56,374 bases of DNA, taken from positions 1-56,374 of IMG/VR virus record IMGVR_UViG_3300027051_000027. The stretch is one strand, 5' to 3'. Below, piece after piece: positions 21,870-53,392 of the stretch; within the stretch, counting starts at the first letter, position 1; every line of letters begins with the position of its first letter. The translations under genes were made by a program, and so were the position numbers. This stretch comes from a virus (taxonomy: Duplodnaviria; Caudoviricetes). Under the pieces are notes generated by a model. The model was not told the origin of the DNA and searched no databases. It saw only the letters and a program-made list of their open reading frames with translations.

Positions 21870-23828
21870 CTATATCCCGGCGACCACGAGGCCGGGGGCC
21901 CGTTTCACATCGGCCAGGCCATGCTCGTCGATTCCAAGAGCGGGGTCGTCGGTGACGCCCGGCTTGATCTTGCGGTCAGAGCACCGGCACAGAATCACGT
22001 TGGATGCGCTGGCGCCGAGCGACGTGTCGCCGGGATAGAGAAGCTTCTCAGATGTGCCCTTGGCGTTATCGACAGTGAAGGGCTCGTCGTAAGGAACGCG
22101 CTGCCCGGAAGCGGCTAGGTGCCAGGCCCGGACGCGCGAGTCCTTGCGCGATCGCCACTCATGCTCGCTGCAGCCGGCGTCAGCGCCCAGGTAGTAGGCC
22201 CCCGCGCGACTTGCGGTTATCACCTCGGTCCGGGCGATTCTCTCGGCTCGCGCAGAACCGAACGCCCTATCGAGGTGCCTCACCCGCTCGGCCAGCTGCT
22301 GAACGCTCTGCCCTTTCTCAAGCCCGTCAGCCAGAGTCTCAACGAGCGCCTGGTGGGTAGCGGTCGTTACCTGATCGACGACTCCCCGGATCTTGCGTGC
22401 GCGCAGCCAGTCGGCAGCCCCGGCCACAGCTAGATCCCAGCTAATCTGCCCGCCGAATGCCGATCCGCCGGTGAGCCCGGAGGCAAAGGCGGATGCCTCC
22501 TCGGCCGTGAAGGTCAAGCTGCCCCCCGACCACTGCATGCCCAGGCGCTCGTAGAAGCCGATTGCTCCCTTGGTCGGCTGATCGATCACCACGCCCAGGC
22601 CGCCTTGGCGGGCGATGGAGGCGATCTCCCCCATGACCCGGCGACCAATGCCGCCGCCGACGGGAGATGCTGGATTCACAGACAGACAGGTGACGACCAG
22701 GTTCTCGCCGGCCAGGCGATACTGAGCCACGGCAAGTACGGTGCCGTCAGCTCCTTTGGCTACCAGCACGGGAACGGTCGTGCCGGTGAACTCAACCGAG
22801 GAAAGGGCTACCTCGGCTAAGTCTCTGCGGGTGCCGGTCCAGCCGGAGACGTCCCGCAGGACGGCCGGCACCGAGGGAAGATCAACGGGAGCGATGCTTA
22901 CCTCCGGCCCCTGGAGCCAACCCACCCGGGACCAGGCTGGTCCAAGGACCGAAGGCGACTGCGCCAAACCTGACGCAGCCTGGGCGGCGAGCGAGAACCG
23001 CCCTTCCGTCTCGGCGGCGAACCCGAGACCCTCAAAGAAGGCACCGGCCTCTGCGGGGGCTTGCAGGGCAATGCCCTTTCCGTTTCTAGCGGCCACGGCC
23101 GCCAGCTCGCGCACCAGCTGAACACCGGTTCCAGGAACCTCGGTCTCAAGCGCGCCTAGATGGACTACGTCAAGGGCCGAAGCCCCGATGCGATAGGAAA
23201 CCGCCGCCACCAGTCGGCCGGCGCCGTCGCGCAAGGCAGCGCCGCGGAGACCTGCGCTCCCGGCTCGGTCGGCGATGGCCTGATAGATGGCTCGTGCCGC
23301 CGCGTTCCTGGAGGTCTTCCAGGCCGCGATCTCCCGGGCGAGCGCCTGGGCTTGAGGCTGGGTGACGCCGGCAAATCCCGGGGGGAGCGCCCCGGTGGCG
23401 GTCCGCGCTGCCATCCCGCCGGTGCCCACCGCCTCCTCGAGCGAGTCCCCCAGGGCCGAGGCGAGCTCGCGCGTATCAACCTGGAAGCTTTGGGTCTCCT
23501 GGTTCCACCATTCCCGGCGGACCGTTACCCCCTCCAGCCAGAAATGGTGGGTAAGGACGGTCTCGGGGGGAAGGTCTTTTGCAGCCCCCTTGGCTATGGG
23601 GGCAAGAGCGGGCGGATGCGAGAGGATGTAGGCGACATACCGATCCCTCTGGGCTCGCAGGAGTCCGGTCAAGGCCTCCTTGAGATCCACCATCTGAGCG
23701 GCCATGGCCGCCGGGGCGGGTAGGCCGTGGCCTTTGGGTAGACCGGCGAGAAGCCAGGCTTCGGTGTCAATCTCCCTGGCTTTGCGGACCACCCGGCGGC
23801 ACTGGGCGGAAAGAGCGTCAAGCTTCAC
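21870..23828 (-). CDS. MuF/SPP1 gp7 head morphogenesis protein with two inserted GNAT domains
   Basis: MuF motifs RAERIARTE, W...DSRVR..H, YPGD, CRC; two GNAT repeats (PGTGVQL...AFFEGLGF; GGIGRRV...GFYERLGM). Confidence 0.85.
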   Translation of the reverse strand: MKLDALSAQCRRVVRKAREIDTEAWLLAGLPKGHGLPAPAAMAAQMVDLKEALTGLLRAQRDRYVAYILSHPPALAPIAKGAAKDLPPETVLTHHFWLEGVTVRREWWNQETQSFQVDTRELASALGDSLEEAVGTGGMAARTATGALPPGFAGVTQPQAQALAREIAAWKTSRNAAARAIYQAIADRAGSAGLRGAALRDGAGRLVAAVSYRIGASALDVVHLGALETEVPGTGVQLVRELAAVAARNGKGIALQAPAEAGAFFEGLGFAAETEGRFSLAAQAASGLAQSPSVLGPAWSRVGWLQGPEVSIAPVDLPSVPAVLRDVSGWTGTRRDLAEVALSSVEFTGTTVPVLVAKGADGTVLAVAQYRLAGENLVVTCLSVNPASPVGGGIGRRVMGEIASIARQGGLGVVIDQPTKGAIGFYERLGMQWSGGSLTFTAEEASAFASGLTGGSAFGGQISWDLAVAGAADWLRARKIRGVVDQVTTATHQALVETLADGLEKGQSVQQLAERVRHLDRAFGSARAERIARTEVITASRAGAYYLGADAGCSEHEWRSRKDSRVRAWHLAASGQRVPYDEPFTVDNAKGTSEKLLYPGDTSLGASASNVILCRCSDRKIKPGVTDDPALGIDEHGLADVKRAPGLVVAGI

Positions 23829-42645: not shown

Positions 42646-42731
42646 TTGACCCTCCTTTGGTAGCGGATGACGGCGCATCCCAGACCCGCGGTCATCAGTA
42701 GAGCGATCACGATGGAGACGTTGGTAGCCAT
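42642..42731 (-). CDS. 29-aa single-TM peptide
   Basis: MATNVSIVIALLMTAGLGCAVIRYQRRVK, coupled to its neighbours. Confidence 0.45.
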   Translation of the reverse strand: MATNVSIVIALLMTAGLGCAVIRYQRRVK

Positions 42732-42912
42732 CAGCGCTCCGTGTCCGCCCTTGCCGCGATAACCCGGCCGCCGACTTTCACCCAGAAGGCCGCAAGTGCC
42801 GCGATTCCCGTGGGGCAGCGCTCGGGCTCCTGCGAGGGAGCCGGCCAAACACCGGGCTTTCCCTCCCGGGTATCCGGAGCCCTCATAGCGGTCTCAGGCT
42901 CAGGAACGGCCT

Positions 42913-43164
42913 TCATGACGCGTGCTCCAGTGGCTCTCTGAGCTCGATCAGATCCTCGACGGTGCAGCCCAGAGTCCGCGCATATGCCAGGGCCGTGAGG
43001 ACGTCCATGGAGGTAACGCCGTTCACGTGCCGGGAGACAGTGGCCTCCGCGACTCCCGTGAGCACGGCGAGGCGCCGCTGGTTCATCACGGGTTCCCCCG
43101 CTTCGCGCCGGGTTCGGTTGTAGTCGTCTATGAGTTCAATCAATCTCGTCATTGGACCGCTCAC
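42913..43164 (-). CDS. Cro-like XRE HTH regulator
   Basis: MNQRRLAVLTGVAEATVSRHVNG...YARTLGCTVEDL; divergent from the repressor; start 43164 or 43152. Confidence 0.85.
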   Translation of the reverse strand: MSGPMTRLIELIDDYNRTRREAGEPVMNQRRLAVLTGVAEATVSRHVNGVTSMDVLTALAYARTLGCTVEDLIELREPLEHAS

Positions 43165-43170
43165 TACTGT

Positions 43171-43242
43171 ACTTGCAGTACTGAAAACCTACCTCCGCAC
43201 TTGCACACTTGTCAAGCGGTATTGCACTGGTGGATTTACAGT
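43171..43242. promoter_or_regulatory. cI/cro divergent promoters and operator-like repeats
   Basis: - strand TTGACA (43210-15)-N18-TAGGTT (43186-91); + strand TACAGT (43237-42); repeats ACTTGCA (43171, 43199), ACTTGTC (43207), ATTGCAC (43221). Confidence 0.6.
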
Positions 43243-43252
43243 GGCTGCAGCC

Positions 43253-43618
43253 ATGGAAGAGAAGCGAAATACGGATCCGCTGCCAGTGGCCCTTCGCGCA
43301 CTCCTGAACCTTCGTGGGATGACGGACACGGAGCTGATGGCGAAGGCAGGCCTGTCCCCCTCCACGGTTACCCACTACCTACGAGGCAGCCGCGGACGAC
43401 GCATGGACCGACAATCCGTAGCCACCGTGAAGAAGATGGCCCAGGCTCTAGACGTGCCCCCGGAGCACTTCCTCGAGTATCGAATCTGGCGAGCTCAAGA
43501 GATCATGAAGGCCTACCCAGACCTGGCCGATCAGGTCTATGACCTCCTAGTTGCCCAGGCCGACACGTATGACGCCTACGACAAACGCGAGAACAAGCCG
43601 CGGAGCAGAGGCAAGTAG
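43253..43618 (+). CDS. CI-like XRE repressor (no peptidase domain)
   Basis: GMTDTELMAKAGLSPSTVTHYLRG...MAQALDVPPEHF; 121 aa. Confidence 0.85.
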   Translation: MEEKRNTDPLPVALRALLNLRGMTDTELMAKAGLSPSTVTHYLRGSRGRRMDRQSVATVKKMAQALDVPPEHFLEYRIWRAQEIMKAYPDLADQVYDLLVAQADTYDAYDKRENKPRSRGK

Positions 43619-43719
43619 GTCCTGAGGGCTTTGCGTGCAGGGTTGCGGGCCAGAAGAGACGCAAACTGCAGGGCACCGATTGCGAGACGGATGAGCAGAC
43701 GACAGGTGGCCAACCGCAT
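43576..43719 (-). CDS. 47-aa cationic amphipathic peptide antisense to the cI 3' end (not in the ORF track)
   Basis: GGGAGGT-agaaa-ATG; MRLATCRLLIRLAIGALQFASLLARNPARKALRTYLPLLRGLFSRLS*; downstream of a sigma28-like promoter. Confidence 0.5.
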   Translation of the reverse strand: MRLATCRLLIRLAIGALQFASLLARNPARKALRTYLPLLRGLFSRLS

Positions 43720-43848
43720 TTTCTACCTCCCACGTAACAATGAGGGCGCACCCGGACACAGACAGGTACGGGAGCGCTGCAGCATTGGCCGTGGGAAAGC
43801 AGCGCCGCAGACGCTCCCCTAATACCCGAGCGCGAGGGAACACCGTTG

Positions 43849-43876
43849 TTATCGGCTGAGGGGGCGATCTATCTGA
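43849..43876 (-). promoter_or_regulatory. Sigma28/WhiG-like promoter
   Basis: TCAG-N16-GCCGATAA on the - strand (perfect -10, imperfect -35). Confidence 0.5.
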
Positions 43877-44026
43877 GAGGGGACTAGCGAGGAACGGAGC
43901 TCGCTGAACCGGCGAACATCGGGTTGAAGCCGGCAGACAAGAGGCTCCAGAACAGACACGTGTTGAGAGAGTCCGGACACTAGTCAGAGCAGAAAGGCCA
44001 AGAGGAGATCCACGGAGGTGATCCGA

Positions 44027-44830
44027 ATGCCAGATCCTGACAACGTCGTTCCATTCGCCCGCGATGCTAGTCCACCGGCCGATGATGAGCCTGAGATCCC
44101 GAACCAACCAGAGTCTAAGACCGCAAGCGCTCATCGGGCTTCTCGGCCCAAGTGGGAGACGGCTTCGCGTGAGCGAGTGAAGCAGGCGCTGAAGAAGTAT
44201 GCCCGGCCGTTATCCGACCTTGCGGAGCGCGATGCGAATGAGGGCGACACCAGGCTGCTGGTAACGGATTTCCTGTGCGAAGGGTTGGGCTACGACAAGT
44301 ACACCGACCTCACCACCGAGTATCGGGTCAGGGGCGAGTTTGCCGACTTTGGTGTCCGCATTGACGACGAAATGGTGGCGTTCATCGAGGTCAAGCGCAT
44401 CAGGACCAAGCTTGGCGCCAAGCAGCTCCGACAAGTTCAATCCTACGCGGCAAATGAGGGCGTGTCCTGGATGATTCTCACCAACGGCGCTGAATGGCAC
44501 CTGTACCACCTGTCAGACACTGTTCCCCTGGTGAACGAGCTCCTATTCACCGTTGATCTTCTCGGTTCTGAGAGCCCGAGCAGCAAGGTGGACGACCTCT
44601 TCTATCTCAGCCGAGAGGCGATGAAGCGCAACCAGATCGAAGAGCTTTGGAAGGCCAAGCGCGCCACTCGCCCCCAGGCGCTAGCCGAGTTGCTTCGATC
44701 ACAATCCGTTGTCGATTCGATCAGGAAGGAACTCTGGCGCAAGACCGGCCATCGAGTGCAGGCCGATGAAATCGTGCGCCTGCTCGAGGAAACGGTGCTC
44801 AGACCGGAGTGCCTTGAGCCATCGAAGTAG
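44027..44830 (+). CDS. Stand-alone HsdR N-terminal-like PD-(D/E)xK nuclease
   Basis: NEGDT, LGYD, ADF...IEVKR, QVQSY, ILTNG..W. Confidence 0.8.
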   Translation: MPDPDNVVPFARDASPPADDEPEIPNQPESKTASAHRASRPKWETASRERVKQALKKYARPLSDLAERDANEGDTRLLVTDFLCEGLGYDKYTDLTTEYRVRGEFADFGVRIDDEMVAFIEVKRIRTKLGAKQLRQVQSYAANEGVSWMILTNGAEWHLYHLSDTVPLVNELLFTVDLLGSESPSSKVDDLFYLSREAMKRNQIEELWKAKRATRPQALAELLRSQSVVDSIRKELWRKTGHRVQADEIVRLLEETVLRPECLEPSK

Positions 44831-44863
44831 GGGCGGACCGAGCCTCAGAGCAAAGGAGGGGAG

Positions 44864-45112
44864 ATGGCCATCAACCGCAAGGAGACTTCAGACGACATAG
44901 CCGCGCTAGCATCGGACATACTGCGCGACAAGAACGCCTCGGCGATCGCCAAGTCCCTGGCGGGGTCCGCATTGGCTCAGGCGAGCGGCGGCCGGCAGAC
45001 CGGAGCCGAGATGGAAGACAAGGCCTCCAAGGTGCTCAGCAGCGATAAGTACAGCGACGAGACTAAGAAGCTGGCCGGGTCGGTGCTTTCCCAGTCGAAC
45101 AGGAGGCGGTGA
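44864..45112 (+). CDS. 82-aa protein with an internal tandem duplication
   Basis: AAAGGAGG RBS; two copies of T...AS..L...S...K.LAGS.L.Q. Confidence 0.75.
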   Translation: MAINRKETSDDIAALASDILRDKNASAIAKSLAGSALAQASGGRQTGAEMEDKASKVLSSDKYSDETKKLAGSVLSQSNRRR

Positions 45113-45128
45113 GATTGCCGCGGGAAAG

Positions 45129-45875
45129 GTGGCCACGGTGAGTCAAGATGACGGTGAACAAGAGAGCAAGGTAGCCAGAGAGACACGTCCCGTTATACCG
45201 GCGGCAGTGGCACGTGATGCCATGCGCCAATACCGGGTGGTTTTCAAGAACCTTGATGCGTTCGCCCCGATCATCGAGAGAGCTCAGCGAGCAATTCGCG
45301 AAGCGACCGGTGGAATACCAGCCAACCTGGCGAGCGACGCCATGCGAAACATGGCCGTCTTCCAGGAGGCAGCCTCTATTCCGAAGTCCAGCGGACTCAT
45401 GCAGGAGGCTGGGCGAATCGCGGCCGACCTAAGTCATTCCATGCTGCCGGACATGGTAGAGAAGATCACACGAGACTTCGGACCGGTTCTTGACCAATTC
45501 GCTTCACATGCATCCGCCATCCCGGCAATCGATGGGCTCGATACCCTCCCCAGCCCCCTCGGCGCTCAAGTTACCGAGGTGCACGACCTGCTTATTCAGC
45601 GCGCCGCGTGGTCTCCTTCCCCGCTCCTGTCCGAATGGCTTGAAGCCAGCCACGATGGAGTTGAGCTCGCGGAGATGCACATTCAGCCAGCGAAGGAGGA
45701 GGTCGAGACTCACTGGATGGGTGCCTACCTCTGGGTGCTCATGTTGACGGCACTCTTCGGATCCGCTGTCCGCACCCAGCAATGGGACCTGGCCGGAGAG
45801 ATACTCGGCTACCTGGCCGACGCGGCGACCGTATACCTAGCCGTTGACCTCGTCATGAAACGGGTGATGAGGTGA
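45129..45875 (+). CDS. Hypothetical protein with a hydrophobic C-terminus
   Basis: 248-aa ORF in the cargo island. Confidence 0.6.
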   Translation: MATVSQDDGEQESKVARETRPVIPAAVARDAMRQYRVVFKNLDAFAPIIERAQRAIREATGGIPANLASDAMRNMAVFQEAASIPKSSGLMQEAGRIAADLSHSMLPDMVEKITRDFGPVLDQFASHASAIPAIDGLDTLPSPLGAQVTEVHDLLIQRAAWSPSPLLSEWLEASHDGVELAEMHIQPAKEEVETHWMGAYLWVLMLTALFGSAVRTQQWDLAGEILGYLADAATVYLAVDLVMKRVMR

Positions 45876-46011
45876 GAAGCCTCGATTGCCACCTCAAGAC
45901 GGCGCCGCCCTATTTCGCGCAGCCCGCGGGAGCCAAGGAAGAGACATGCACTGAACGTCAAGTTGACAGACGCCGGCAAGCCACCGATGAAAAGCCCGTG
46001 AGGACTTGAAA

Positions 46012-46776
46012 ATGGCACGACTGGACCCTGAGCAGGAACGGCTGCTGTCGAGAATGGTCGAGGCGACCAGAAACGTACCATCGTCGGAGAGGCAGCCCAT
46101 CACTGTGTTCCAAGGTGAACGGGGCGGCGTGATGCATCACCCAGGCGTCCCGCCGGGCGAGAAGGACATCAGCTTGGAGGACATCGCCCTTCTGGAACGA
46201 TACGGCCTGATCCTGCAGACAAGCAGCAGCAACAGTGGCCTCATTCGATGCATGGTGATCACGCCAGAGGGAAAGGAGTACTACTCCCGACTTCGGGCGG
46301 AGGACCCGGCGGTCCAGACGGAGGAAGAGATCCTAGGCTACTTGGACTCGGATCGGTTTCGCTCGCAGCATCAGGCCGCCTATGACCATTGGTCTCGTGC
46401 CATGCGCTCTCTTGGCAATGGCGACACAGATGAGCAGTACACAGAAATCGGCCACCACTGCCGCTTGGCAATGCAGGAATTCTCCGATTCCCTCCTGGCT
46501 CTCTATCCCAACAAAGGAGCTCCATCGGACAAGACGAGGACCATCGACCGCCTCCGAGCCGTCTTCGCGCCAAGGCGCGATTCAGTCAGCAAGAGCGTTC
46601 TTGAGGTCCTTGATGCGCTCATAGTCTATTGGGGCGCAGTGTCTGATCTTGCCCAACGGCAAGAGCATGGCGCACACAAGGAGGGGGAGGCCCTGCTCTG
46701 GCACGACGCCCAGAGACTTGTCTTTCTGACCGGGGTGGTGATGTTCGAGATCGCGCAAGAAATGTCGATGGCCTAG
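46012..46776 (+). CDS. wHTH + HEPN/Abi_C-like protein
   Basis: LERYGLI...ITPEG wHTH; all-helical C-terminal domain with CRLAMQEF and QRQEHG...DAQRLV. Confidence 0.5.
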   Translation: MARLDPEQERLLSRMVEATRNVPSSERQPITVFQGERGGVMHHPGVPPGEKDISLEDIALLERYGLILQTSSSNSGLIRCMVITPEGKEYYSRLRAEDPAVQTEEEILGYLDSDRFRSQHQAAYDHWSRAMRSLGNGDTDEQYTEIGHHCRLAMQEFSDSLLALYPNKGAPSDKTRTIDRLRAVFAPRRDSVSKSVLEVLDALIVYWGAVSDLAQRQEHGAHKEGEALLWHDAQRLVFLTGVVMFEIAQEMSMA

Positions 46777-46921
46777 CAGGATGAACGCCTTCTCCAAGAC
46801 CGATCGCTTGAATCTCTCGTGGCGGCGGGGTCCATGTCTGTCATATCCCGAGGGCTCCCGGACACTACTGATAGCAGCGAGGCAAAGAAGCCAAAGCCGC
46901 GATCGGAAGGAGACGAGACGG

Positions 46922-47122
46922 ATGGACGCCTACTACGTCAACAACGAGGCGCAGTCTAACGGCGATCACGAGGTTCACAAAGACGGCTGTAGCTGGATGC
47001 CGAAGGACCGAGAGTATCTCGGACGGTATGGCAGCTGCCAGCCGGCTGTTGCCGAGGCAAGGAAGACCTATCTCCAGTCAAACGGCTGCCTCTGGTGCTG
47101 CCTGGAGTGTCACACGCAGTAG
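46922..47122 (+). CDS. 66-aa Cys/His metal-binding protein
   Basis: AAGGAG RBS; YYVN...GDHEVH..GC...GC..CC..CH. Confidence 0.7.
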   Translation: MDAYYVNNEAQSNGDHEVHKDGCSWMPKDREYLGRYGSCQPAVAEARKTYLQSNGCLWCCLECHTQ

Positions 47123-47242
47123 GCTGAAAGGAGTTCAAGTCTGCGCCTGATTGATCTTGCGCATATCAACCTGATCCTGACGAGCATGAGGCACTCCGAG
47201 GCCGAGTGCGACGAGACAAGGCAGACGAGCAGAGGAGGAGTC

Positions 47243-47497
47243 GTGACCCCTGACCCCGAGACCGTCCTAACGACGGGCGAACGAGGCAGGAGACTGCCCT
47301 CGCTTGGGCCTCCTCTGATCCTGCTCGTGCTGGCGGTGATTGGGAACGTCATCATTGCGCGATCGGGGGTCAGTCAGTCTGTGCCTTCCACCCTCATCAT
47401 AGCTCTCGGCCAGATACTCTCCGCGGCCATGTGGGTCGGGGCCGTGTGGCTTGGGGGGATTCTGGCCTATCGGGGAATCGTGGGCGCGCGAGGGTGA
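47243..47497 (+). CDS. Small two-TM membrane protein
   Basis: GAGGAGGAG RBS before GTG; two hydrophobic helices. Confidence 0.55.
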   Translation: MTPDPETVLTTGERGRRLPSLGPPLILLVLAVIGNVIIARSGVSQSVPSTLIIALGQILSAAMWVGAVWLGGILAYRGIVGARG

Positions 47498-47602
47498 TCT
47501 CGTCCACCTCTTGCCCACTTGAACACCACCCGAGACCCCCGTGTTCGGCCGTCTTCATGAGGCCAAAACTTCGATCGATTCCAGTGACCGGGAGGGTCCA
47601 AG

Positions 47603-48724
47603 ATGGCCGACGAAAGCTTCTTTGAAGAGGCAAGAGAACAGTCAGTTGTTAAGGGCGCCATTCTAGGCCAGTACTTTGATGCCTGGACCAACGTAATGCT
47701 GAGGAATCTGCAGAAGTATGGTGGCGACCGGATTGCATACATCGACTTGTTTGCCGGGCCCGGGCGATACGAAGACGGTACCGAGTCCACCCCCCTCATC
47801 GTGCTTCGCCAGGCAATCACCAAGCCGGGTCTCCGGGACTCCTTGGTGACCATCTTCAACGACATTGATCCATCCTCTTGCGACAAACTGCGCACCGAAA
47901 TCGGCGCCCTTAAGGGCATCGAGACACTGAGGTTTCAGCCCAACGTTCAGAACGGAGAGGTGGACGAGGAACTCGTTGAGTACTTGAAGAGCATCGAACT
48001 CGTGCCCTCTCTCTTCTTCATCGACCCATGGGGCTACAAAGGGCTATCGCTAACACTCATTCACCGGGCGAGCCGTGACTGGGGCTGTGACTGCGTGTTC
48101 TTCTTCAACTACAACCGCATCAACATGGGCGTTTCAAACGATGCGGTGGAGCAGCGTATTGATGACCTCTTCGGACGGGAACTGGCGCAGGAATTACGAA
48201 GTGAACTTGAAGGACTGACCCCCGAAGACAGGGAAGCAGCTGTGCTCGAGAAGCTATGCCGGGCCGTGGGTCAGTCGAACGATGGTCGACCGCGGTACGT
48301 CCTGCCATTCCGCTTCAAGAACGATGCGGGCACCCGTACGAAGCACCACCTGATCTTCGTCAGTAAGCACCAGCTTGGGTACGGGATCATGAAAGACATC
48401 ATGTCTCGCCAGAGTTCGCGCGCCGCACAAGGCGTCGCTTCCTTCGAGTATTGCCCAGCAGATCGCAACTTCCCGACGCTGTTTGAGCTCGCACGTCCGC
48501 TTGACGATCTTCAAGACATGCTTCTGGTGGAGTTTGCCGGCGACACTCTCAGTGTTAAGGAGATATTTGGCAGGCACAACGTGGGTACCCCATTCATCAT
48601 GTCGAACTACAAGTCTGCCCTGCTCGCTCTTGAGACGGAGGGACGGGTCGAAGTGCAGTCGCTGCAGGGTACTCGTCGTGCAGGAACGATGGCCGAGCAC
48701 CTCCAGGTGACCTTTCCGGCATGA
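47603..48724 (+). CDS. tcmP: Three-Cys-motif partner protein (MTase-like fold + wHTH)
   Basis: YIDLFAGPG, GTESTP, FFIDPWG, HLIFVSKH..G...MK; adjacent to DUF5131. Confidence 0.85.
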   Translation: MADESFFEEAREQSVVKGAILGQYFDAWTNVMLRNLQKYGGDRIAYIDLFAGPGRYEDGTESTPLIVLRQAITKPGLRDSLVTIFNDIDPSSCDKLRTEIGALKGIETLRFQPNVQNGEVDEELVEYLKSIELVPSLFFIDPWGYKGLSLTLIHRASRDWGCDCVFFFNYNRINMGVSNDAVEQRIDDLFGRELAQELRSELEGLTPEDREAAVLEKLCRAVGQSNDGRPRYVLPFRFKNDAGTRTKHHLIFVSKHQLGYGIMKDIMSRQSSRAAQGVASFEYCPADRNFPTLFELARPLDDLQDMLLVEFAGDTLSVKEIFGRHNVGTPFIMSNYKSALLALETEGRVEVQSLQGTRRAGTMAEHLQVTFPA

Positions 48725-48743
48725 TGCCATGCCAGCCAGGCGT

Positions 48744-48796
48744 TCGACAGCGAAAGTGACTCTGTTATATGATGAATGATGGTAAACATATGTTCG
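48744..48796 (+). promoter_or_regulatory. Sigma70 promoter with a LexA-box-like site
   Basis: TCGACA-N18-TATGAT (48744-48773), then TAAAC-ATAT-GTTCG (48783-48796). Confidence 0.5.
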
Positions 48797-48817
48797 TACT
48801 GCGTCAGAGGAGGGACG

Positions 48818-49540
48818 ATGGCCAAGTCGAGCATTGAGTGGACCGAGTCTACCTGGAACCCTGTAACAGGCTGCACCAAGATCAGTGCCGGCTGCCGGCA
48901 CTGCTACGCCGAGCGCATGGCCATCCGCCTCCAGGCCATGGGCCAGCCCGCCTACGCAGGTGGTTTTGAACTCGCCCTCCATCCGGAGAAGCTACGTCAG
49001 CCCCTGGAATGGCGCAAGCCGAGCACGATCTTCGTCAACTCCATGAGCGATCTGTTCCACGAGGACATCCCTGAGGAGTTCATCCAGGATGTGTTCGAGA
49101 CAATGCGCGAGGCTTCTTGGCATCGCTTTCAGATACTCACCAAGCGAGCTGATCGACTCGAGGATCTGAGCGATTCTCTGGAATGGCCGGAGAACGTGTG
49201 GATGGGCGTGACCGTCGAACGGCAGGACTACGTTACGCGCGTCGACCGGCTGCGTCGGACTGGAGCGCGGGTGAAATTCCTCTCGTGCGAGCCTCTCCTG
49301 GGCCCGATTCCTGGTCTGAACCTTGAGTCAATCGACTGGGTCATTGTCGGGGGAGAGTCTGGTCCGAACTCGCGACCGATGGACCCCGCGTGGGTCACTG
49401 ATCTTCGCGACCAGTGCCTCAATGTGAAGGTACCATTCTTCTTCAAGCAATGGGGTGGCAGAAACAAGAAGAGGGCCGGCCGAGACCTCGAAGGCGACAC
49501 CTGGAGTCAAATGCCCATGCCGAGTCCGGTTCCCCTGTAG
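48818..49540 (+). CDS. DUF5131 / phage Gp37-Gp68 family three-Cys protein
   Basis: [59 protein letters not shown]. Confidence 0.92.
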
Positions 49541-49552
49541 AGACCCCTGCCC

Positions 49553-51181
49553 ATGACAAACACTCTGTATTACGGCGACAACCTAGACGTCCTCAGGCGC
49601 TACATCAAAGACGAGACCGTCGATCTCGTCTACCTGGACCCACCCTTCAATTCGAACGCCACCTACAATGTGCTCTTTGCCGAGCAAGACGGTAGTCGCG
49701 CCGCGGCTCAAATCAAAGCCTTCGAGGACACGTGGCGCTGGGATCAGGAAGCGGAGCGGGAGTACCAGGAGACTGTCACCGAAATCGGCGGTCAGGTTGG
49801 CCAGGCGCTGATTGCTTTCCGGACACTGCTCGGCGAAAGCAACATGATGGCCTATCTGGCTATGATGGCACCGCGGCTTGTGGAACTCAGGCGGGTACTG
49901 AAATCGTCGGGGAGCATCTATCTGCATTGTGATCCGACAGCAAGCCACTACTTGAAGTTGCTCATGGATGCTGTTTTTGGCGCAGCGATGTTCAGAAGCG
50001 AGCTGATATGGAGGAGAACCCGCGGACACAACGATTCTCGAATCCGCAAGTTTGGCGCCATCCATGACAGCATCCTCTTCTATACAAAGGGTGAGAGATG
50101 GACGTTCAATCGGCTTTTCCAGGAGCGCGACCCCAGAGCAGCCAAGACTCACGACCTTTACCGACACACCGACGGAGAACTCTACAGGAAGGGTGATTGC
50201 CGGGCTCCAGGAGGACGTGGACCGCGCTTCGTCTGGAATGGACATGAGCAGAATTGGAGGTTCACGGAGGAGCAGGCCGAGGAGTTGGAGAGCCGAGGTC
50301 GCATCGTATATTCGTCGACGGGGATGCCGCGTATTCTGAGACCGGTGGACCTTAGCCGCGGGCACCAGTTGCAGGATGTGTGGGTCGATATCGATGCCCC
50401 AAACTCCGGGTCAGGTGAACTTCTTGGATACCCGACCCAGAAACCAGCCGCCCTGCTCGAGCGCATCGTCCAGGCAAGCAGCAACGACGGGGACACTGTG
50501 CTCGACCCATTCTGCGGCTGTGGGACGGCTATCTCTGCTGCCCAGAAGCTCACTCGAGAGTGGATCGGCATCGACATCACCCACCTGGCCATCAACCTGA
50601 TCAAGTTCCGGCTCTTGGACGAACACAAGATTGCGGCCGGCAAGGATTACCAGGTGATCGGCGAGCCGACTGACTTGGCCGGCGCTCAGCAGCTTGCCCA
50701 GGAAGACCCCTTCCAGTTCCAGTCCTGGGCCCTTGGTCTGGTCGGTGCCCGCGTGACAGAGCAGAAGAAGGGAGCCGACAAGGGTATCGACGGACGGATC
50801 CGCTTCTTTGACGAAGCCGCACCCAAGCCAAAGCAGGTCATCCTCTCGGTCAAGGCCGGGCATACTGGGGTCGCCCACGTTCGAGATCTACGCGGGGTCC
50901 TCGATCGCGAGAAGGCTGAGATCGGCGTCCTCATCACGATGCAAGAGCCGACACAACCGATGAAGACCGAGGCGGCCTCCGCCGGTTTCTACCAGATCGT
51001 GGGGATCGACGAGAAGTATCCCAAGATGCAGATCCGGACCATCCGAGAGCTACTAGACGGTAGGGGCATCGACATGCCCAGCCGCCACGCGAACGTGACG
51101 TTCAAGAAGGCACCGCGTGCCGCCCAGAACAATGGCACAGTGCAGGCACTCCCTCTCAACTTTGAGCCTGACCAAGAGTAG
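49553..51181 (+). CDS. N6/N4 DNA methyltransferase fused to an Mrr-like endonuclease domain
   Basis: YLDPPF, YPTQKP, LDPFCGCGT; C-terminal FQSWA...GADKGIDG...SVKAG...VRDLRG. Confidence 0.88.
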   Translation: MTNTLYYGDNLDVLRRYIKDETVDLVYLDPPFNSNATYNVLFAEQDGSRAAAQIKAFEDTWRWDQEAEREYQETVTEIGGQVGQALIAFRTLLGESNMMAYLAMMAPRLVELRRVLKSSGSIYLHCDPTASHYLKLLMDAVFGAAMFRSELIWRRTRGHNDSRIRKFGAIHDSILFYTKGERWTFNRLFQERDPRAAKTHDLYRHTDGELYRKGDCRAPGGRGPRFVWNGHEQNWRFTEEQAEELESRGRIVYSSTGMPRILRPVDLSRGHQLQDVWVDIDAPNSGSGELLGYPTQKPAALLERIVQASSNDGDTVLDPFCGCGTAISAAQKLTREWIGIDITHLAINLIKFRLLDEHKIAAGKDYQVIGEPTDLAGAQQLAQEDPFQFQSWALGLVGARVTEQKKGADKGIDGRIRFFDEAAPKPKQVILSVKAGHTGVAHVRDLRGVLDREKAEIGVLITMQEPTQPMKTEAASAGFYQIVGIDEKYPKMQIRTIRELLDGRGIDMPSRHANVTFKKAPRAAQNNGTVQALPLNFEPDQE

Positions 51182-51315
51182 TCCTCAACCGTTCCCCGAG
51201 CTTCCCGCACAACTTCTCCGTCTCATCCCCTCGGGCGGCTGCCCCAGAAGGACCGCAACTCCCTCCAGGGCTCACGCGTAGTTACTAGGTCTTCACTTTC
51301 CCTGCTAGTGGCTAC

Positions 51316-51343
51316 TAAAGGGGATCTCCTCCTAGGCCGATAA
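51316..51343 (+). promoter_or_regulatory. Sigma28 (FliA/SigD/WhiG) consensus promoter
   Basis: TAAA-N16-GCCGATAA, about 120 nt upstream of the kinase start. Confidence 0.7.
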
Positions 51344-51460: not shown

Positions 51461-53392
51461 TTGAAGAGCCTGCTCGCCGATTTCATGACGCACCACCTGT
51501 CCACCGGCGTGATCGTTTACCTGAGGGACGGCCAGTGCCATTACGCGAATGAGGCAGCGGCCGAGCTTCTGGGGGTACCTCTCAAGAAGCTCATATTGGA
51601 GAACATCTTTCACTCGCGATCCGGGGATGGCGCAGAGATGCTGTCTTTGGGGCGCGGGACTCTGGAGACAGGAGAGTCCCGTGAGTGCGAAATCTCGATC
51701 GCACATGAGTCAGGAAAATGGCGCCACGCAGCCATCCGCTTCTCCCTCGTCTCGTTCGCCGAGGATCACGCGCTTGTAGCAACGCTCTCTGACGTCACCG
51801 AGCAGAGAACCGCGGAGAAGTCCGTCAGTTTCCTAGAGTTTGCCGTCGAGAACGCTGAAGAAATGGTCTTCTCGGTCGATTATGACGGCAGATTCACCTA
51901 CGTGAACGATTCGGCATGTCGACACCTGGGCTTCACGAGGCAAGAACTCTTGAGTTCGCGGGTAGACCGAGTAATGGACGGTCCTTCCCGAGAGCGCGTG
52001 CACGAAGCGTGGCTTCGGGTCCAGAAGCACGGAACAGGAACCTTCCAGGTGATGGCCATGCGCAAGGACGGAAGCTCATTCCCGGTGGAGATCACCGCCG
52101 ATTACTACGGATTGCAGGAACAGAACCATGTAATTGGCTTCGCGCGGGACGTCACGGCGGCAACCGCGGCGCGACAAGCTCTCGCCGCAACCGAGGAACG
52201 CTACCGCACGATGGTTGAAGCCACCTCTGATGCAATCTACAGCTATGACCTCGATCTACGGATAACAGGCATGAACAGGGCTGCGGAGGCGGCCACCGGA
52301 GTCTCTTCCGACGTCGCTCTGGGACAACACCTGGACTCTCTCGGCTTCCCACCCGCCACCCTGGAGCTATGGATGGAAATGACCGATCAGGTCCTGACCG
52401 AGCGGGCGGAAATCATGAGGGAAGTCGAAGCCTTCATGCCGGACGGACAGTCTCATTTCTATGAAACATTTCTCAGCCCCATCTGGAACGCTGAAGGTGA
52501 GATTGTCGGTTTTCGAGGTCGCTCCCAGGATGTAACCGCGAAGCGAACGGCCGAGGAAGCGCTCAGGAAGAACGAGGAACATCTCCGCCAGGTCGAGCGA
52601 GTAGAAGCCATCGGCCAGCTGGCGGCTGGCGTCGCCCATGACTTCAACAACCTTCTCACCGGCATCATGGGATACAGCGAATTGCTCCTGGGCAACGAGG
52701 ACGAAGGATTCATGAGCCCCGAGGCGCGGGAGGATGTACGAGAGATCAGGGCAACCGCCGAGCGGGGCAAAGCCCTTACCAGGCACATCCTCGCCTACAC
52801 GCGGGCAAAGGACGTCAAGCCCGCACGGCTGTGTTTGAACGACGCCATAGCAGGGATGAGGGAGCTTCTGACGAGAACCCTGGGCGGAAGCATCGAGGTG
52901 GACCTGCACCTGGAGGATGGGCTGGAGGACACCATGGCAGACCTGGGTCAGCTCGAGCAGGTCTTGATGAATCTTGCGATCAATGGCCGTGACGCGATGG
53001 CTGAGGGCGGAAGACTCACGATACAGACTGCCAACGTGTTTCTGGAGGAGGACTTCTGTCTATCTCACGGCTGCTCAGAACCGGGAAGATACGTTCTGCT
53101 CTCGGTGGCAGATATCGGCTGCGGAATGGACGAGGGAACCAAGTCTCGCATCTTCGAACCCTTCTTTACGACCAAGGAGGCCGGCAAAGGAACCGGCCTC
53201 GGCCTGGCCACGGTGATAGGCATTGTGAGACAAAGCGGAGGTTTCGTTGCTGTCGAGAGCGAGGTCGGAAGCGGCTCTACGTTCAAAGTCTATCTGCCCT
53301 CAGTGGAACACGGGCATGATGCTCCCACGAAACGATCCAGCCGAGAGCACCGAGCGGAACACAGGATGACGACCCTGGCCGTGACGAGCTGA
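51461..53392 (+). CDS. Cytoplasmic triple-PAS sensor histidine kinase, no receiver domain
   Basis: Three PAS repeats (YANEAA, YVNDSA, GMNRAA); H-box AHDFNNLL; NLAINGRDAM, DIGCGM, FEPFFTTK, GTGLGL. Confidence 0.92.
   Translation: MKSLLADFMTHHLSTGVIVYLRDGQCHYANEAAAELLGVPLKKLILENIFHSRSGDGAEMLSLGRGTLETGESRECEISIAHESGKWRHAAIRFSLVSFAEDHALVATLSDVTEQRTAEKSVSFLEFAVENAEEMVFSVDYDGRFTYVNDSACRHLGFTRQELLSSRVDRVMDGPSRERVHEAWLRVQKHGTGTFQVMAMRKDGSSFPVEITADYYGLQEQNHVIGFARDVTAATAARQALAATEERYRTMVEATSDAIYSYDLDLRITGMNRAAEAATGVSSDVALGQHLDSLGFPPATLELWMEMTDQVLTERAEIMREVEAFMPDGQSHFYETFLSPIWNAEGEIVGFRGRSQDVTAKRTAEEALRKNEEHLRQVERVEAIGQLAAGVAHDFNNLLTGIMGYSELLLGNEDEGFMSPEAREDVREIRATAERGKALTRHILAYTRAKDVKPARLCLNDAIAGMRELLTRTLGGSIEVDLHLEDGLEDTMADLGQLEQVLMNLAINGRDAMAEGGRLTIQTANVFLEEDFCLSHGCSEPGRYVLLSVADIGCGMDEGTKSRIFEPFFTTKEAGKGTGLGLATVIGIVRQSGGFVAVESEVGSGSTFKVYLPSVEHGHDAPTKRSSREHRAEHRMTTLAVTS

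What the first reader, a model, noticed from the sequence alone, without database searches (positions are those of the whole stretch)
43576..43888. Hidden sigma28-type unit firing antisense into cI and encoding a 47-aa amphipathic peptide
Seen: - strand TCAG-N16-GCCGATAA, a leader of about 120 nt with a long stem (GGGAGCG...CGCTCCC, ~43770-43818), a strong GGGAGGT RBS, and an Arg/Leu-rich 47-codon ORF overlapping the last 43 nt of cI. Known: GCCGATAA is the FliA/SigD/WhiG -10 element. Inference: the prophage reads host motility or developmental state and antagonises its repressor by antisense RNA or an antirepressor peptide. Alternatively it is a type I toxin-like peptide.
Basis: partly seen in the sequence, partly recalled or inferred. 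Interest (0 to 1): 0.7.

Follow-up and report, generated by a model that had tools for sequence, protein, structure and literature searches.

The report
Orphan small ORF facing prophage repressor
Behind the repressor gene of a metagenomic prophage lies a unique 47-codon reading frame with a good ribosome site, pointing back at the repressor; related phages keep a DNA-damage-controlled small gene in that place, but nothing shows that this one is switched on by a motility sigma factor or acts on the repressor.

Summary
Only the ribosome site plus ATG on the pyrimidine-rich minus strand exceeds chance (0.6% of 20,000 shuffles). The GCCGATAA octamer occurs at chance frequency (2 seen, 0.91 expected). 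Its -35 is poor for classical sigma28. The hairpin is one of some 25-30 equally stable ones in the window.

The 47-aa product has no relative in 5.8 billion or 1.84 billion proteins. None appears in 93 related loci either. No RNA data exist, and the host genome is not held.

New context comes from relatives. Thirteen distinct related immunity regions carry a conserved small acidic protein, here called MTGRE. Its gene converges on the repressor gene, and eight of the 13 have a LexA box upstream, which suggests an SOS-controlled antirepressor. The window's own MTGRE copy is a decayed pseudogene 7.5 kb away.

The 47-codon ORF sits in the same geometry as MTGRE in relatives but is unrelated and has no LexA box.

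Verdict: about even odds that this is a real lineage-specific small gene rather than a chance ORF. Sigma28 control and repressor antagonism remain unsupported, at roughly 10%.

The parts
43849..43877 (-). Sigma28/WhiG-like motif: CTCA-N17-GCCGATAA, which can also be read as TCAG-N16-GCCGATAA
   Evidence: The octamer alone is at chance frequency. The -35 matches TAAA at 2 of 4 positions, T(A/C)AA at 3 of 4, and CTCA exactly at N17.
43762..43826 (-). Stem-loop in the proposed leader
   Evidence: -35.6 kcal/mol on the minus strand (z -3.85) and -27.3 on the plus strand; not exceptional across the record. No T or U run follows it on either strand.
43725..43731 (-). Shine-Dalgarno GGGAGGT, 5 nt before the ATG
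   Evidence: this combination arises on the minus strand in 0.6% of 20,000 spacer shuffles.
43576..43719 (-). 47-codon orphan ORF (orf47), Leu/Arg-rich, no acidic residue
   Evidence: No homolog found.
43253..43618 (+). cI-like HTH repressor gene without a peptidase domain. Its last 43 nt are overlapped by orf47. The longest frame starts at 43130.
   Evidence: HTH_3 at E 9e-9 and no other domain; homologs in relatives.
43619..44026 (.). 408-nt spacer, not conserved in relatives, 61% GC, 61% purine on the plus strand
   Evidence: No Rfam match.
43913..43926 (.). Best LexA-box-like site in the spacer, with 2 mismatches to CGAAC-N4-GTTCG; at chance level
   Evidence: 38 such sites in the window against 31.3 expected.
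44027..44830 (+). HSDR_N-like nuclease-family gene. It follows repressor genes in several phages.
51159..51290 (-). Decayed copy of the MTGRE small gene, the window's true ortholog of the conserved convergent small gene
   Evidence: Compared with the G001 gene it shows two single-base gaps, GTA where G001 has its GTG start, no ribosome site and a broken LexA box.
51316..51343 (+). Perfect TAAA-N16-GCCGATAA, about 115 nt before the PAS histidine-kinase ORF
   Evidence: 0.01 expected per window.

Best explanation
The spacer behind the repressor gene carries a lineage-specific (orphan) minus-strand unit. It consists of a 47-codon ORF with a near-perfect ribosome site, whose coding region converges on the repressor gene and overlaps its last 43 nt.

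It sits in the same slot and geometry as the conserved MTGRE small gene in related phages. That gene is LexA-box-controlled and is inferred to encode an SOS antirepressor for these peptidase-less repressors. The window's ORF is not homologous to MTGRE and has no LexA box.

What is shown:
- The motifs are present.
- The ribosome site plus ATG is unlikely by chance on this strand.
- The slot is used for a convergent small gene in relatives.
- The window's own MTGRE copy is a pseudogene elsewhere in the record.

What is inferred:
- The ORF is transcribed from a promoter in the 307 nt between its start and the divergent HSDR_N-like gene.
- It is translated into a cationic amphipathic peptide.
- Any effect on the repressor would come from convergent transcription or RNA overlap at the 3' end.

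Which sigma factor reads the promoter is open. I put real expression at a little under one half.
For: - GGGAGGT, 5 nt, then ATG directly after an in-frame stop. On this pyrimidine-rich strand that combination, with an ORF of at least 40 aa, arises in 0.6% of 20,000 shuffles.
- By my reading, most GGAGG-N4-10-ATG sites with ORFs of at least 30 aa in the window are real gene starts. Clear off-frame or antisense exceptions number only 2-3.
- GC by codon position is 0.58/0.52/0.73, so GC3 is gene-like.
- A gene caller listed the product, which is in the protein collection as the window's own sequence.
- Relatives use the same slot. Thirteen distinct MTGRE peptides were found, always on the strand opposite the repressor gene. 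Ten of them end within -167 to +16 nt of the repressor stop (seven of these between -27 and -79 nt); the window's overlap is -43.
- Two relatives (L119, L121) share the full order cro, cI, spacer, HSDR_N-like gene.
- The window's MTGRE ortholog is decayed, so the classical SOS input appears to be lost.
Against: - No homolog of the peptide was found. The window's own sequence is the only hit at 25-83 aa among 5.8 billion proteins. No candidate of 84-2000 aa scored (78 candidates). Only itself appears among 1.84 billion representatives by phmmer.
- Nothing was found in 82 cI-related loci (best E 0.25) or in 11 HSDR_N-related loci (best E 1.2).
- The codon-usage score of -0.018 per codon lies between wrong-frame ORFs (mean -0.33, 12% reach it) and real-gene windows (mean +0.37, 2.4% fall that low).
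- Zero Asp/Glu occurs in 11% of wrong-frame ORFs but in 0.2% of real 47-aa windows. The R+L content of 45% is reached by none of 123 null ORFs and none of 420 real windows.
- The composition is what a 61% pyrimidine strand encodes.
- The spacer has no detectable homology to the spacers of L119 or L121 (scores at the null).
- It is absent from the closest relative G001, where the repressor gene is followed directly by the next gene.
- No terminator-like site exceeds chance.
Confidence: 0.42

Rival explanations
1. A chance constellation in a recombination-junction spacer. The 408 nt are non-conserved filler at the left edge of an accessory and defence cassette inserted behind the repressor gene. 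The ORF, hairpin and octamer have no function on the minus strand. Any function lies on the plus strand: read-through or a promoter for the HSDR_N-like operon, with the hairpin as a weak terminator or insulator.
For: - Compared with G001, about 4 kb are extra between the repressor gene and the TcmP-like/DUF5131 pair, beginning with this spacer. G001 shares TerL at 68%, Cro at 53%, cI at about 39-45% and DUF5131 at 87% identity.
- The spacer has no homolog anywhere.
- Its GC is 0.61, like coding DNA and unlike the 0.50 of the cro-cI control region.
- Strong purine loading of the plus strand fits plus-strand transcription.
- The octamer and hairpin are at background frequency.
- The peptide's composition and orphan status fit a spurious ORF.
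Against: - The all-purine ribosome site followed by ATG on the pyrimidine-rich strand is improbable: 0.6% on the minus strand, 6.4% on either strand.
- The same convergent geometry is functional in relatives.
- The hairpin has no T run after it on the plus strand and is weaker there.
- No sigma70-like promoter was found on the plus strand.
Confidence: 0.38
2. A sigma28-family (FliA/SigD/WhiG) promoter at 43849-43877 fires leftward. It produces a structured leader and orf47 mRNA that antagonise the repressor by antisense pairing or as an antirepressor peptide, coupling induction to host motility or development.
For: - A perfect -10 octamer. TCAG-N16 is one mismatch from the WhiG2 consensus, and CTCA-N17 equals the WhiG1-type -35 quoted in PMC12871210.
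- The motif lies 130 nt before the start codon.
- A second, perfect TAAA-N16-GCCGATAA lies in the same record before a histidine kinase (0.01 expected).
- Leads point to an actinobacterial host. The nearest endolysin cluster is mostly Actinomycetota, 127 of 235 capsid hits are Streptomyces phages, and one MTGRE homolog is named from a Thermoleophilia MAG.
- The LexA-controlled module is decayed, leaving room for another input.
- Unterminated minus-strand transcription would run into cro and the lytic operon, which lie on the same strand.
Against: - The octamer is at chance frequency.
- The -35 matches the classical TAAAGTTT octamer at only 2-3 of 8 positions (my reading). Single -35 changes reduce an E. 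coli sigma28 promoter to background.
- The match to actinobacterial variants was chosen after the fact, and the relaxed query is at chance.
- The motif is not conserved. No related locus has GCCGATA[AT] on that strand downstream of its repressor gene.
- The host is unknown. A Thermus phage carries the same repressor/HSDR_N pair; from recall, Thermus is not known to have a flagellar sigma.
- The phage itself encodes no sigma70-family region 2.
Confidence: 0.1
3. A type I toxin-like module. orf47 is a small membrane-active toxin whose mRNA is held in check by a structured leader and by 3' overlap with the convergent repressor mRNA.
For: - The peptide is 47 aa with net charge +9.
- The best 19-residue hydropathy window is 1.61, and the C-terminal half is strongly amphipathic (muH 0.6-0.67).
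- It has a long leader with a stable hairpin.
- It overlaps a convergent gene by 43 nt at the 3' end. From recall, this resembles the 3'-overlapping prophage type I pairs of Bacillus subtilis.
Against: - The hydrophobic stretch contains two arginines, so there is no clean membrane span.
- The small hairpin over the ribosome site is weaker than in shuffles (z +1.13).
- No dedicated antisense RNA or terminator was recognised.
- There is no homolog and no PADLOC or Pfam family.
Confidence: 0.05

Closest known systems
LexA-controlled small antirepressors of prophages with non-cleavable repressors: Gifsy GfoA/GfhA, coliphage 186 Tum, N15 AntC (PMC3121763; abstract and passages read)
   Same: A short repressor without a cleavage domain (121 aa, HTH only). 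A small gene with its own promoter close to the immunity region. In relatives that gene (MTGRE) carries a perfect LexA box 24-134 nt upstream.
   Different: orf47 has no LexA box and no similarity to MTGRE or to any protein. It is basic rather than acidic. Binding to the repressor is untested. [quoted passage not shown]
MTGRE small-protein family of related phages
   Same: Same strand, same convergence on the repressor gene, and a similar overlap with its 3' end (seven of 13 distinct peptides between -27 and -79 nt, the window -43). Similar size (42-59 aa for eleven of the 13 distinct peptides; two weaker members are 85 aa). A ribosome site 5-9 nt before the start.
   Different: No sequence similarity. 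MTGRE proteins mostly carry more acidic than basic residues and have a conserved N-terminal motif and a GD motif; orf47 has none of this. The window's real MTGRE ortholog is the pseudogene at 51159-51290.
Sigma28-family promoters: E. coli TAAAGTTT-n11-GCCGATAA (PMC2859248); actinobacterial WhiG2 T(A/C)AA-N16-GCCGATAA and WhiG1 CTCA-N16-17-GCCGAACT (PMC12871210)
   Same: A perfect -10 octamer with the spacing of the actinobacterial variants.
   Different: The -35 does not match the classical element. The site combines a WhiG1-like -35 with a WhiG2-like -10. There is no evidence for the factor or for a transcript.
Lambda OOP RNA, a short antisense RNA overlapping the 3' end of cII mRNA (recalled; no paper read)
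   Same: A convergent transcript would overlap only the 3' end of a lysogeny regulator's mRNA.
   Different: OOP is a non-coding RNA with a defined promoter and terminator. Here the unit is a putative mRNA with no recognised terminator, and the target would be the maintenance repressor.

Membership tests
Sigma28 (FliA/SigD/WhiG)-dependent promoter | -10 element GCCGATAA | tested here: met
   Exact octamer at 43856->43849 on the minus strand. At chance frequency in the window (2 against 0.91 expected).
Sigma28 (FliA/SigD/WhiG)-dependent promoter | -35 element TAAA(GTTT) at N15, or T(A/C)AA at N16 | tested here: not met
   TCAG at N16 matches TAAA at 2 of 4 and T(A/C)AA at 3 of 4 positions. It matches the 8-mer at only 2-3 of 8. 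Only the WhiG1-type CTCA at N17 fits.
Sigma28 (FliA/SigD/WhiG)-dependent promoter | Host encodes a sigma28-family factor | not testable with these tools
   The window is a provirus record with no host genome held. The phage itself has no Sigma70_r2 match. There are only leads on host phylum.
Sigma28 (FliA/SigD/WhiG)-dependent promoter | Transcript start about 7-8 nt after the -10, dependent on the factor | not testable with these tools
   No RNA run is listed. Only one DNA contig could be laid.
LexA-controlled antirepressor module (Tum/Gifsy type; MTGRE in relatives) | LexA (SOS) box in the promoter of the small gene | tested here: not met
   No GAAC-N4-GTTC in the spacer. The only perfect core in the window lies at 23120, inside a gene. 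The best spacer site has 2 mismatches, at chance level.
LexA-controlled antirepressor module (Tum/Gifsy type; MTGRE in relatives) | Sequence membership in the small-protein family | tested here: not met
   A profile of 5 MTGRE sequences finds no hit in 43.5-44.0 kb. The alignment is not credible.
LexA-controlled antirepressor module (Tum/Gifsy type; MTGRE in relatives) | Partner repressor lacks an autocleavage domain | tested here: met
   Only HTH families were found in the 121-162 aa product.
LexA-controlled antirepressor module (Tum/Gifsy type; MTGRE in relatives) | Small protein binds and inactivates the repressor | not testable with these tools
   This needs a binding or reporter experiment. 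See Tried and rejected for the one computational attempt.
Type I toxin-antitoxin | Small hydrophobic peptide with a membrane-spanning helix | tested here: inconclusive
   The best 19-residue window scores 1.61 but contains two Arg. The peptide is amphipathic rather than hydrophobic.
Type I toxin-antitoxin | Dedicated antisense RNA antitoxin | tested here: not met
   No RNA family was found. There is no promoter/terminator pair above chance. The only overlapping transcript would be the repressor mRNA.
cis-antisense RNA regulator of a phage repressor | Defined transcript on the opposite strand with a terminator inside or beyond the target | tested here: inconclusive
   One weak terminator-like site at 43602->43586, with 2 found in the region against 0.9 expected. 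No expression data.

The most novel reading that the evidence does not exclude
Input swap in a prophage switch. This lineage normally triggers induction through a LexA-box-controlled small acidic protein (MTGRE) whose gene converges on the repressor gene. In this prophage that module has decayed. Two sigma28/WhiG-type promoters have arisen instead. One drives an unrelated convergent small gene and antisense RNA against the repressor, and if unterminated it reads on into cro and the lytic operon. The other, a perfect consensus placed in the old MTGRE promoter region, drives a PAS histidine kinase. The prophage would then read the host's WhiG/FliA state (motility, development, c-di-GMP) instead of DNA damage.
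Probability: 0.08. Interest if true: 0.8.

Novelty: new variant of a known kind. Interest (0 to 1): 0.35.

Why it matters
If the unit is real, a prophage would have replaced the usual DNA-damage input of its lysis-lysogeny switch with a different, host-state-dependent one, using a newly arisen small gene. That would give a testable case of how phage decision circuits are rewired and how new small genes arise.

Two things are already useful, whatever the status of orf47:

- Phages of this group keep an unannotated, LexA-box-controlled small protein gene converging on a peptidase-less repressor gene. It is a candidate new antirepressor family in phages whose LexA box is of the Gram-positive type.
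- This particular prophage has lost that gene, which predicts that DNA damage would not induce it.

If the unit is a chance ORF, the case is a caution. In GC-rich, strand-biased spacers, long Arg/Leu-rich frames and isolated sigma-factor octamers appear readily.

Tried and rejected
- **Expression:** no RNA holder is listed for 43200-44400. The one DNA run, a possible source of the record, only confirms the sequence in one contig with no differences.
- **Binding test:** orf47 was tested against the repressor (alignment of 14) with complex prediction. The result was no verdict (score 0.00, mark 0.32, controls not run). This counts neither for nor against binding.
- **RNA families and tRNAs:** none in the window or in 43450-44100 at E up to 1.
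- **Single-protein scans for relatives of the repressor or the HSDR_N-like protein:** these found nothing usable. There was no DNA match in phage records or in 5 related viral records, and no exact 24-mer match in IMG/VR.
- **Operator-like or terminal repeats in the spacer:** none convincing.
- **Other frames of the spacer (195, 82, 43, 63 and 39 aa):** no Pfam or PHROG family.
- **Spacer as a decayed L119/L121-type spacer:** rejected, because local alignment scores are at the shuffle mean.
- **orf47 as a frameshifted MTGRE:** rejected, with no profile hit there. A 34% match over 50 aa at 43859-43999 has E 0.17 and I treat it as noise.
- **Host inference:**
  - The histidine kinase was uninformative.
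  - TerL hits are too distant, at 29% or less.
- **Earlier notes of the scan:** none.
- **Literature:** a search for sigma28/FliA-controlled prophage induction listed 10 of 66 papers, none with such a title (listing only).
- **Strand asymmetry of the hairpin** (-35.6 against -27.3 kcal/mol): not used as evidence, because equal or larger asymmetries are common.
Full report
**Setting**

The window is a 56,374-base provirus record from IMG/VR. No host genome is held for it.

It is a siphovirus-type prophage at 63% GC. Lysis, tail, head, packaging, replication and SbcCD-like genes lie on the minus strand from about 1.2 to 43.2 kb.

At 42913-43164 (minus) is a Cro-like HTH gene. Diverging from it is a cI-like HTH gene: the longest frame is 43130-43618, and the probable start is the ATG at 43253. 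It has only HTH domains and no peptidase domain.

Everything to the right lies on the plus strand:
- an HSDR_N-like gene (real start 44027, behind a GGAGGTG site);
- four ORFs without family;
- a TcmP-like/DUF5131 pair that matches the PADLOC candidate systems PDC-M30/M41;
- a methylase-endonuclease fusion;
- a PAS histidine kinase;
- a large serine recombinase that runs off the end of the record.

The finding lies in the 408-nt spacer 43619-44026, between the repressor gene and the HSDR_N-like gene.

**The observation**

Against chance the picture is mixed.

- The octamer occurs twice in the window against 0.91 expected.
- Its best -35 is as poor as that of 25 of the 45 near-octamers in the window.
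- The 65-nt hairpin folds at -35.6 kcal/mol with z -3.85 against its own shuffles. However, 58 of 22,524 windows of the same size across the record do as well, in some 25-30 places, mostly coding.
- The full leader has z -1.84 and the whole spacer z -1.0 on this strand.
- The length of the frame means nothing. The minus strand is 61% pyrimidine here, stop codons are purine-rich, and all three minus frames are open.
- The one feature that stands out is an all-purine ribosome site followed by ATG on that strand. It arises in 0.6% of 20,000 shuffles of the spacer on the minus strand, and in 6.4% on either strand.

**Is the ORF a gene?**

The codon-position GC (0.58/0.52/0.73) is half gene-like.

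A codon log-odds score trained on 21 confident genes of the window gives -0.018 per codon. That lies between wrong-frame ORFs of 40-70 aa (n 123, mean -0.33, 12% reach it) and 48-codon windows of real genes (n 420, mean +0.37, 2.4% fall that low). Two small ORFs that look real by position score the same.

The product has 13 Leu, 8 Arg, 7 Ala, no acidic residue and a net charge of +9. Its C-terminal half is amphipathic. Zero Asp/Glu is seen in 11% of null ORFs and in 0.2% of real windows. An R+L content of 45% is seen in none of either.

It has no relative. Only itself appears among proteins of 25-83 aa in 5.8 billion, none among longer ones, and only itself by phmmer over 1.84 billion representatives. 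There is no Pfam, PHROG or PADLOC family.

I put the odds that it is translated at a little under even.

**Relatives**

TerL-based searching found six viral contigs at 67-75% identity. Two of five of these records that I searched hold a repressor homolog.

In the best one, G001 (TerL 68%; Cro 53%; cI 45% and 39% in the alignment; DUF5131 87%), the repressor gene is followed at once by the TcmP-like gene and DUF5131. Compared with G001, the window therefore carries about 4 kb extra, starting with the spacer.

A profile scan of metagenomes gave 253 repressor relatives, of which 80 were kept. The best has 58% identity, on a contig too short to help. None of 82 loci has similarity to the peptide or to the spacer. 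None has GCCGATA[AT] on the opposite strand downstream of its repressor gene.

The HSDR_N-like gene follows a repressor gene directly in Thermus phage Riverbug. It also follows one in several of 10 viral loci found with a two-sequence profile.

Two of these, L119 and L121 (61% and 64% identity), share the whole order cro, cI, spacer, HSDR_N-like gene. Their spacers are 260-350 nt. The two spacers are homologous to each other but not to the window's: local alignment scores of 16 and 19 sit at the shuffle mean of 19, while L119 against L121 scores 84.

**What relatives keep in this slot**

The spacers of L119 and L121, and many other loci carrying the repressor family, hold a small ORF on the strand opposite the repressor gene. 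Its N-terminus is conserved (MTGRE...), and it has a conserved GD motif and a Leu/Trp-rich second half.

A profile finds it in 17 loci, giving 13 distinct peptides, always convergent with the repressor gene.
- Ten of the 13 end within -167 to +16 nt of the repressor stop. Seven of these lie between -27 and -79 nt.
- Three lie 1.4-1.7 kb downstream, with other genes in between.
- All have a G-rich ribosome site before the start.
- Eight of the 13 have a perfect GAAC-N4-GTTC 24-134 nt upstream, and seven of those have the full CGAAC-N4-GTTCG.
- Two more sit on contigs too short to tell.

That 14-mer is the Bacillus subtilis LexA consensus (passage in PMC4551915). It occurs 16 times in the 310 kb of related loci, against 0.29 in shuffles.

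The family has no Pfam or PHROG model. It has 33 clusters in the large protein collection, and every named one is 'hypothetical'. One is from a Thermoleophilia MAG.

The partner repressors are short and lack a cleavage domain. The closest known logic is therefore the LexA-controlled small antirepressors of Gifsy phages, 186 and N15 (PMC3121763, abstract and passages). This is inference; nothing was tested.

**The window's own copy of that module**

G001 has the order cI, TcmP-like, DUF5131, then MTGRE on the opposite strand with its LexA box, then the serine recombinase.

The window shows nucleotide homology to the G001 MTGRE gene at the syntenic place, 51159-51290 on the minus strand, converging on the methylase-endonuclease gene. 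Compared with G001 it has:
- two single-base gaps;
- GTA where G001 has its GTG start;
- no ribosome site;
- a broken LexA box.

The profile hits are weak and split over two frames (E 1.5 and 2.1; tblastn E 0.002). The window has no perfect LexA core outside a coding region.

The conserved SOS-linked module of this phage group is therefore a pseudogene here. orf47 is not its ortholog. It merely occupies the position that MTGRE has in L119 and L121.

**The sigma28 idea**

The -10 is right for the family. The E. coli consensus is TAAAGTTT-n11-GCCGATAA, and single -35 changes drop the aer promoter to background (table in PMC2859248). The actinobacterial WhiG2 consensus is T(A/C)AA-N16-GCCGATAA, and WhiG1 is CTCA-N16-17-GCCGAACT (passage in preprint PMC12871210).

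The site is poor against the classical -35. It is one mismatch from WhiG2, and exact for the WhiG1-type -35 at N17. That choice was made after seeing the sequence, and the relaxed query is at chance (4 against 2.34).

Two things keep the idea alive.
- A second, perfect TAAA-N16-GCCGATAA lies at 51316-51343, before the histidine kinase (0.01 expected).
- There are leads to an actinobacterial host, and the LexA boxes of relatives are of the Gram-positive type.

Against it stand the lack of conservation, the unknown host, the Thermus-phage link, and the absence of any expression data.

**Verdict**

The most likely readings are close to each other:
- a real but orphan small gene with a ribosome site that converges on the repressor gene (0.42);
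- a chance frame in a junction spacer (0.38).

The slot is a genuine regulatory slot in relatives, held by a LexA-box-controlled small protein. This prophage has lost that protein.

Noticed in passing
window 51316-51343 (+): A perfect sigma28/WhiG2-type consensus, TAAA-N16-GCCGATAA, lies about 115 nt before the PAS-PAS-HisKA-HATPase histidine-kinase ORF (51461-53392). Only 0.01 such sites are expected per window. It sits in what is the MTGRE promoter region in relative G001, and the sequence there is not conserved with G001.
   Followed up: partly
window 51159-51290 (-): A pseudogene of the conserved MTGRE small gene. Compared with G001 it has two single-base gaps, a lost start codon, a lost ribosome site and a decayed LexA box. 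This predicts that the prophage has lost its SOS-linked induction input.
   Followed up: yes
L121:1505-1684(-), L119:1600-1752(-), L048:480-650(-), L049:751-921(-), L053:2870-3001(-), L054:2818-2949(-), L129:6213-6359(-), L044:4619-4771(-) and others: An unannotated family of 42-59 aa, mostly acidic proteins (two weaker 85-aa members; N-terminal MTGRE motif). Their genes converge on peptidase-less cI-like repressor genes, and a perfect Gram-positive-type LexA box lies 24-134 nt upstream in 8 of 13 distinct members. The family has 33 clusters in the large collection and no Pfam or PHROG model. It is a candidate SOS-controlled antirepressor family.
   Followed up: partly
window 43619-47602 versus L036/L129 (G001): About 4 kb (the spacer, the HSDR_N-like gene and four ORFs without family) are present between the repressor gene and the TcmP-like/DUF5131 pair. 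They are absent from the closest relative. This appears to be a hot spot for accessory genes between the repressor gene and the MTGRE gene.
   Followed up: partly
window 44027-44830 (+); L118 (Thermus phage Riverbug) 2531-3325: The HSDR_N-like 'restriction endonuclease' gene directly follows the repressor gene in a Thermus phage (5-nt gap). It also follows an HTH repressor gene in several IMG/VR loci. The repressor/nuclease-like pair is conserved, and its role is unknown.
   Followed up: partly
window 47603-51181 (+): A defence-type island in the lysogeny arm. The TcmP-like (GMT-wHTH) plus DUF5131 pair matches the PADLOC candidates PDC-M30/M41 (E 1e-20 and 1e-121). It is followed by an N6/N4 methylase fused to an Mrr-like endonuclease domain.
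   Followed up: no
window 43165-43252: The cro-cI control region has 50% GC and contains a palindrome around 43173-43186 and repeated ACTTGCA-like words. No ribosome site precedes the ATG at 43253, so the repressor mRNA may be leaderless. The consensus scan found no sigma70-type promoter anywhere in 42700-44300.
   Followed up: no
window 43547-44134 (-): A 195-codon open frame spans the whole spacer and both flanking gene ends. Its codon score is -0.30, its GC3 is 0.57, and it has no family. It is best explained by the pyrimidine richness of that strand.
   Followed up: yes
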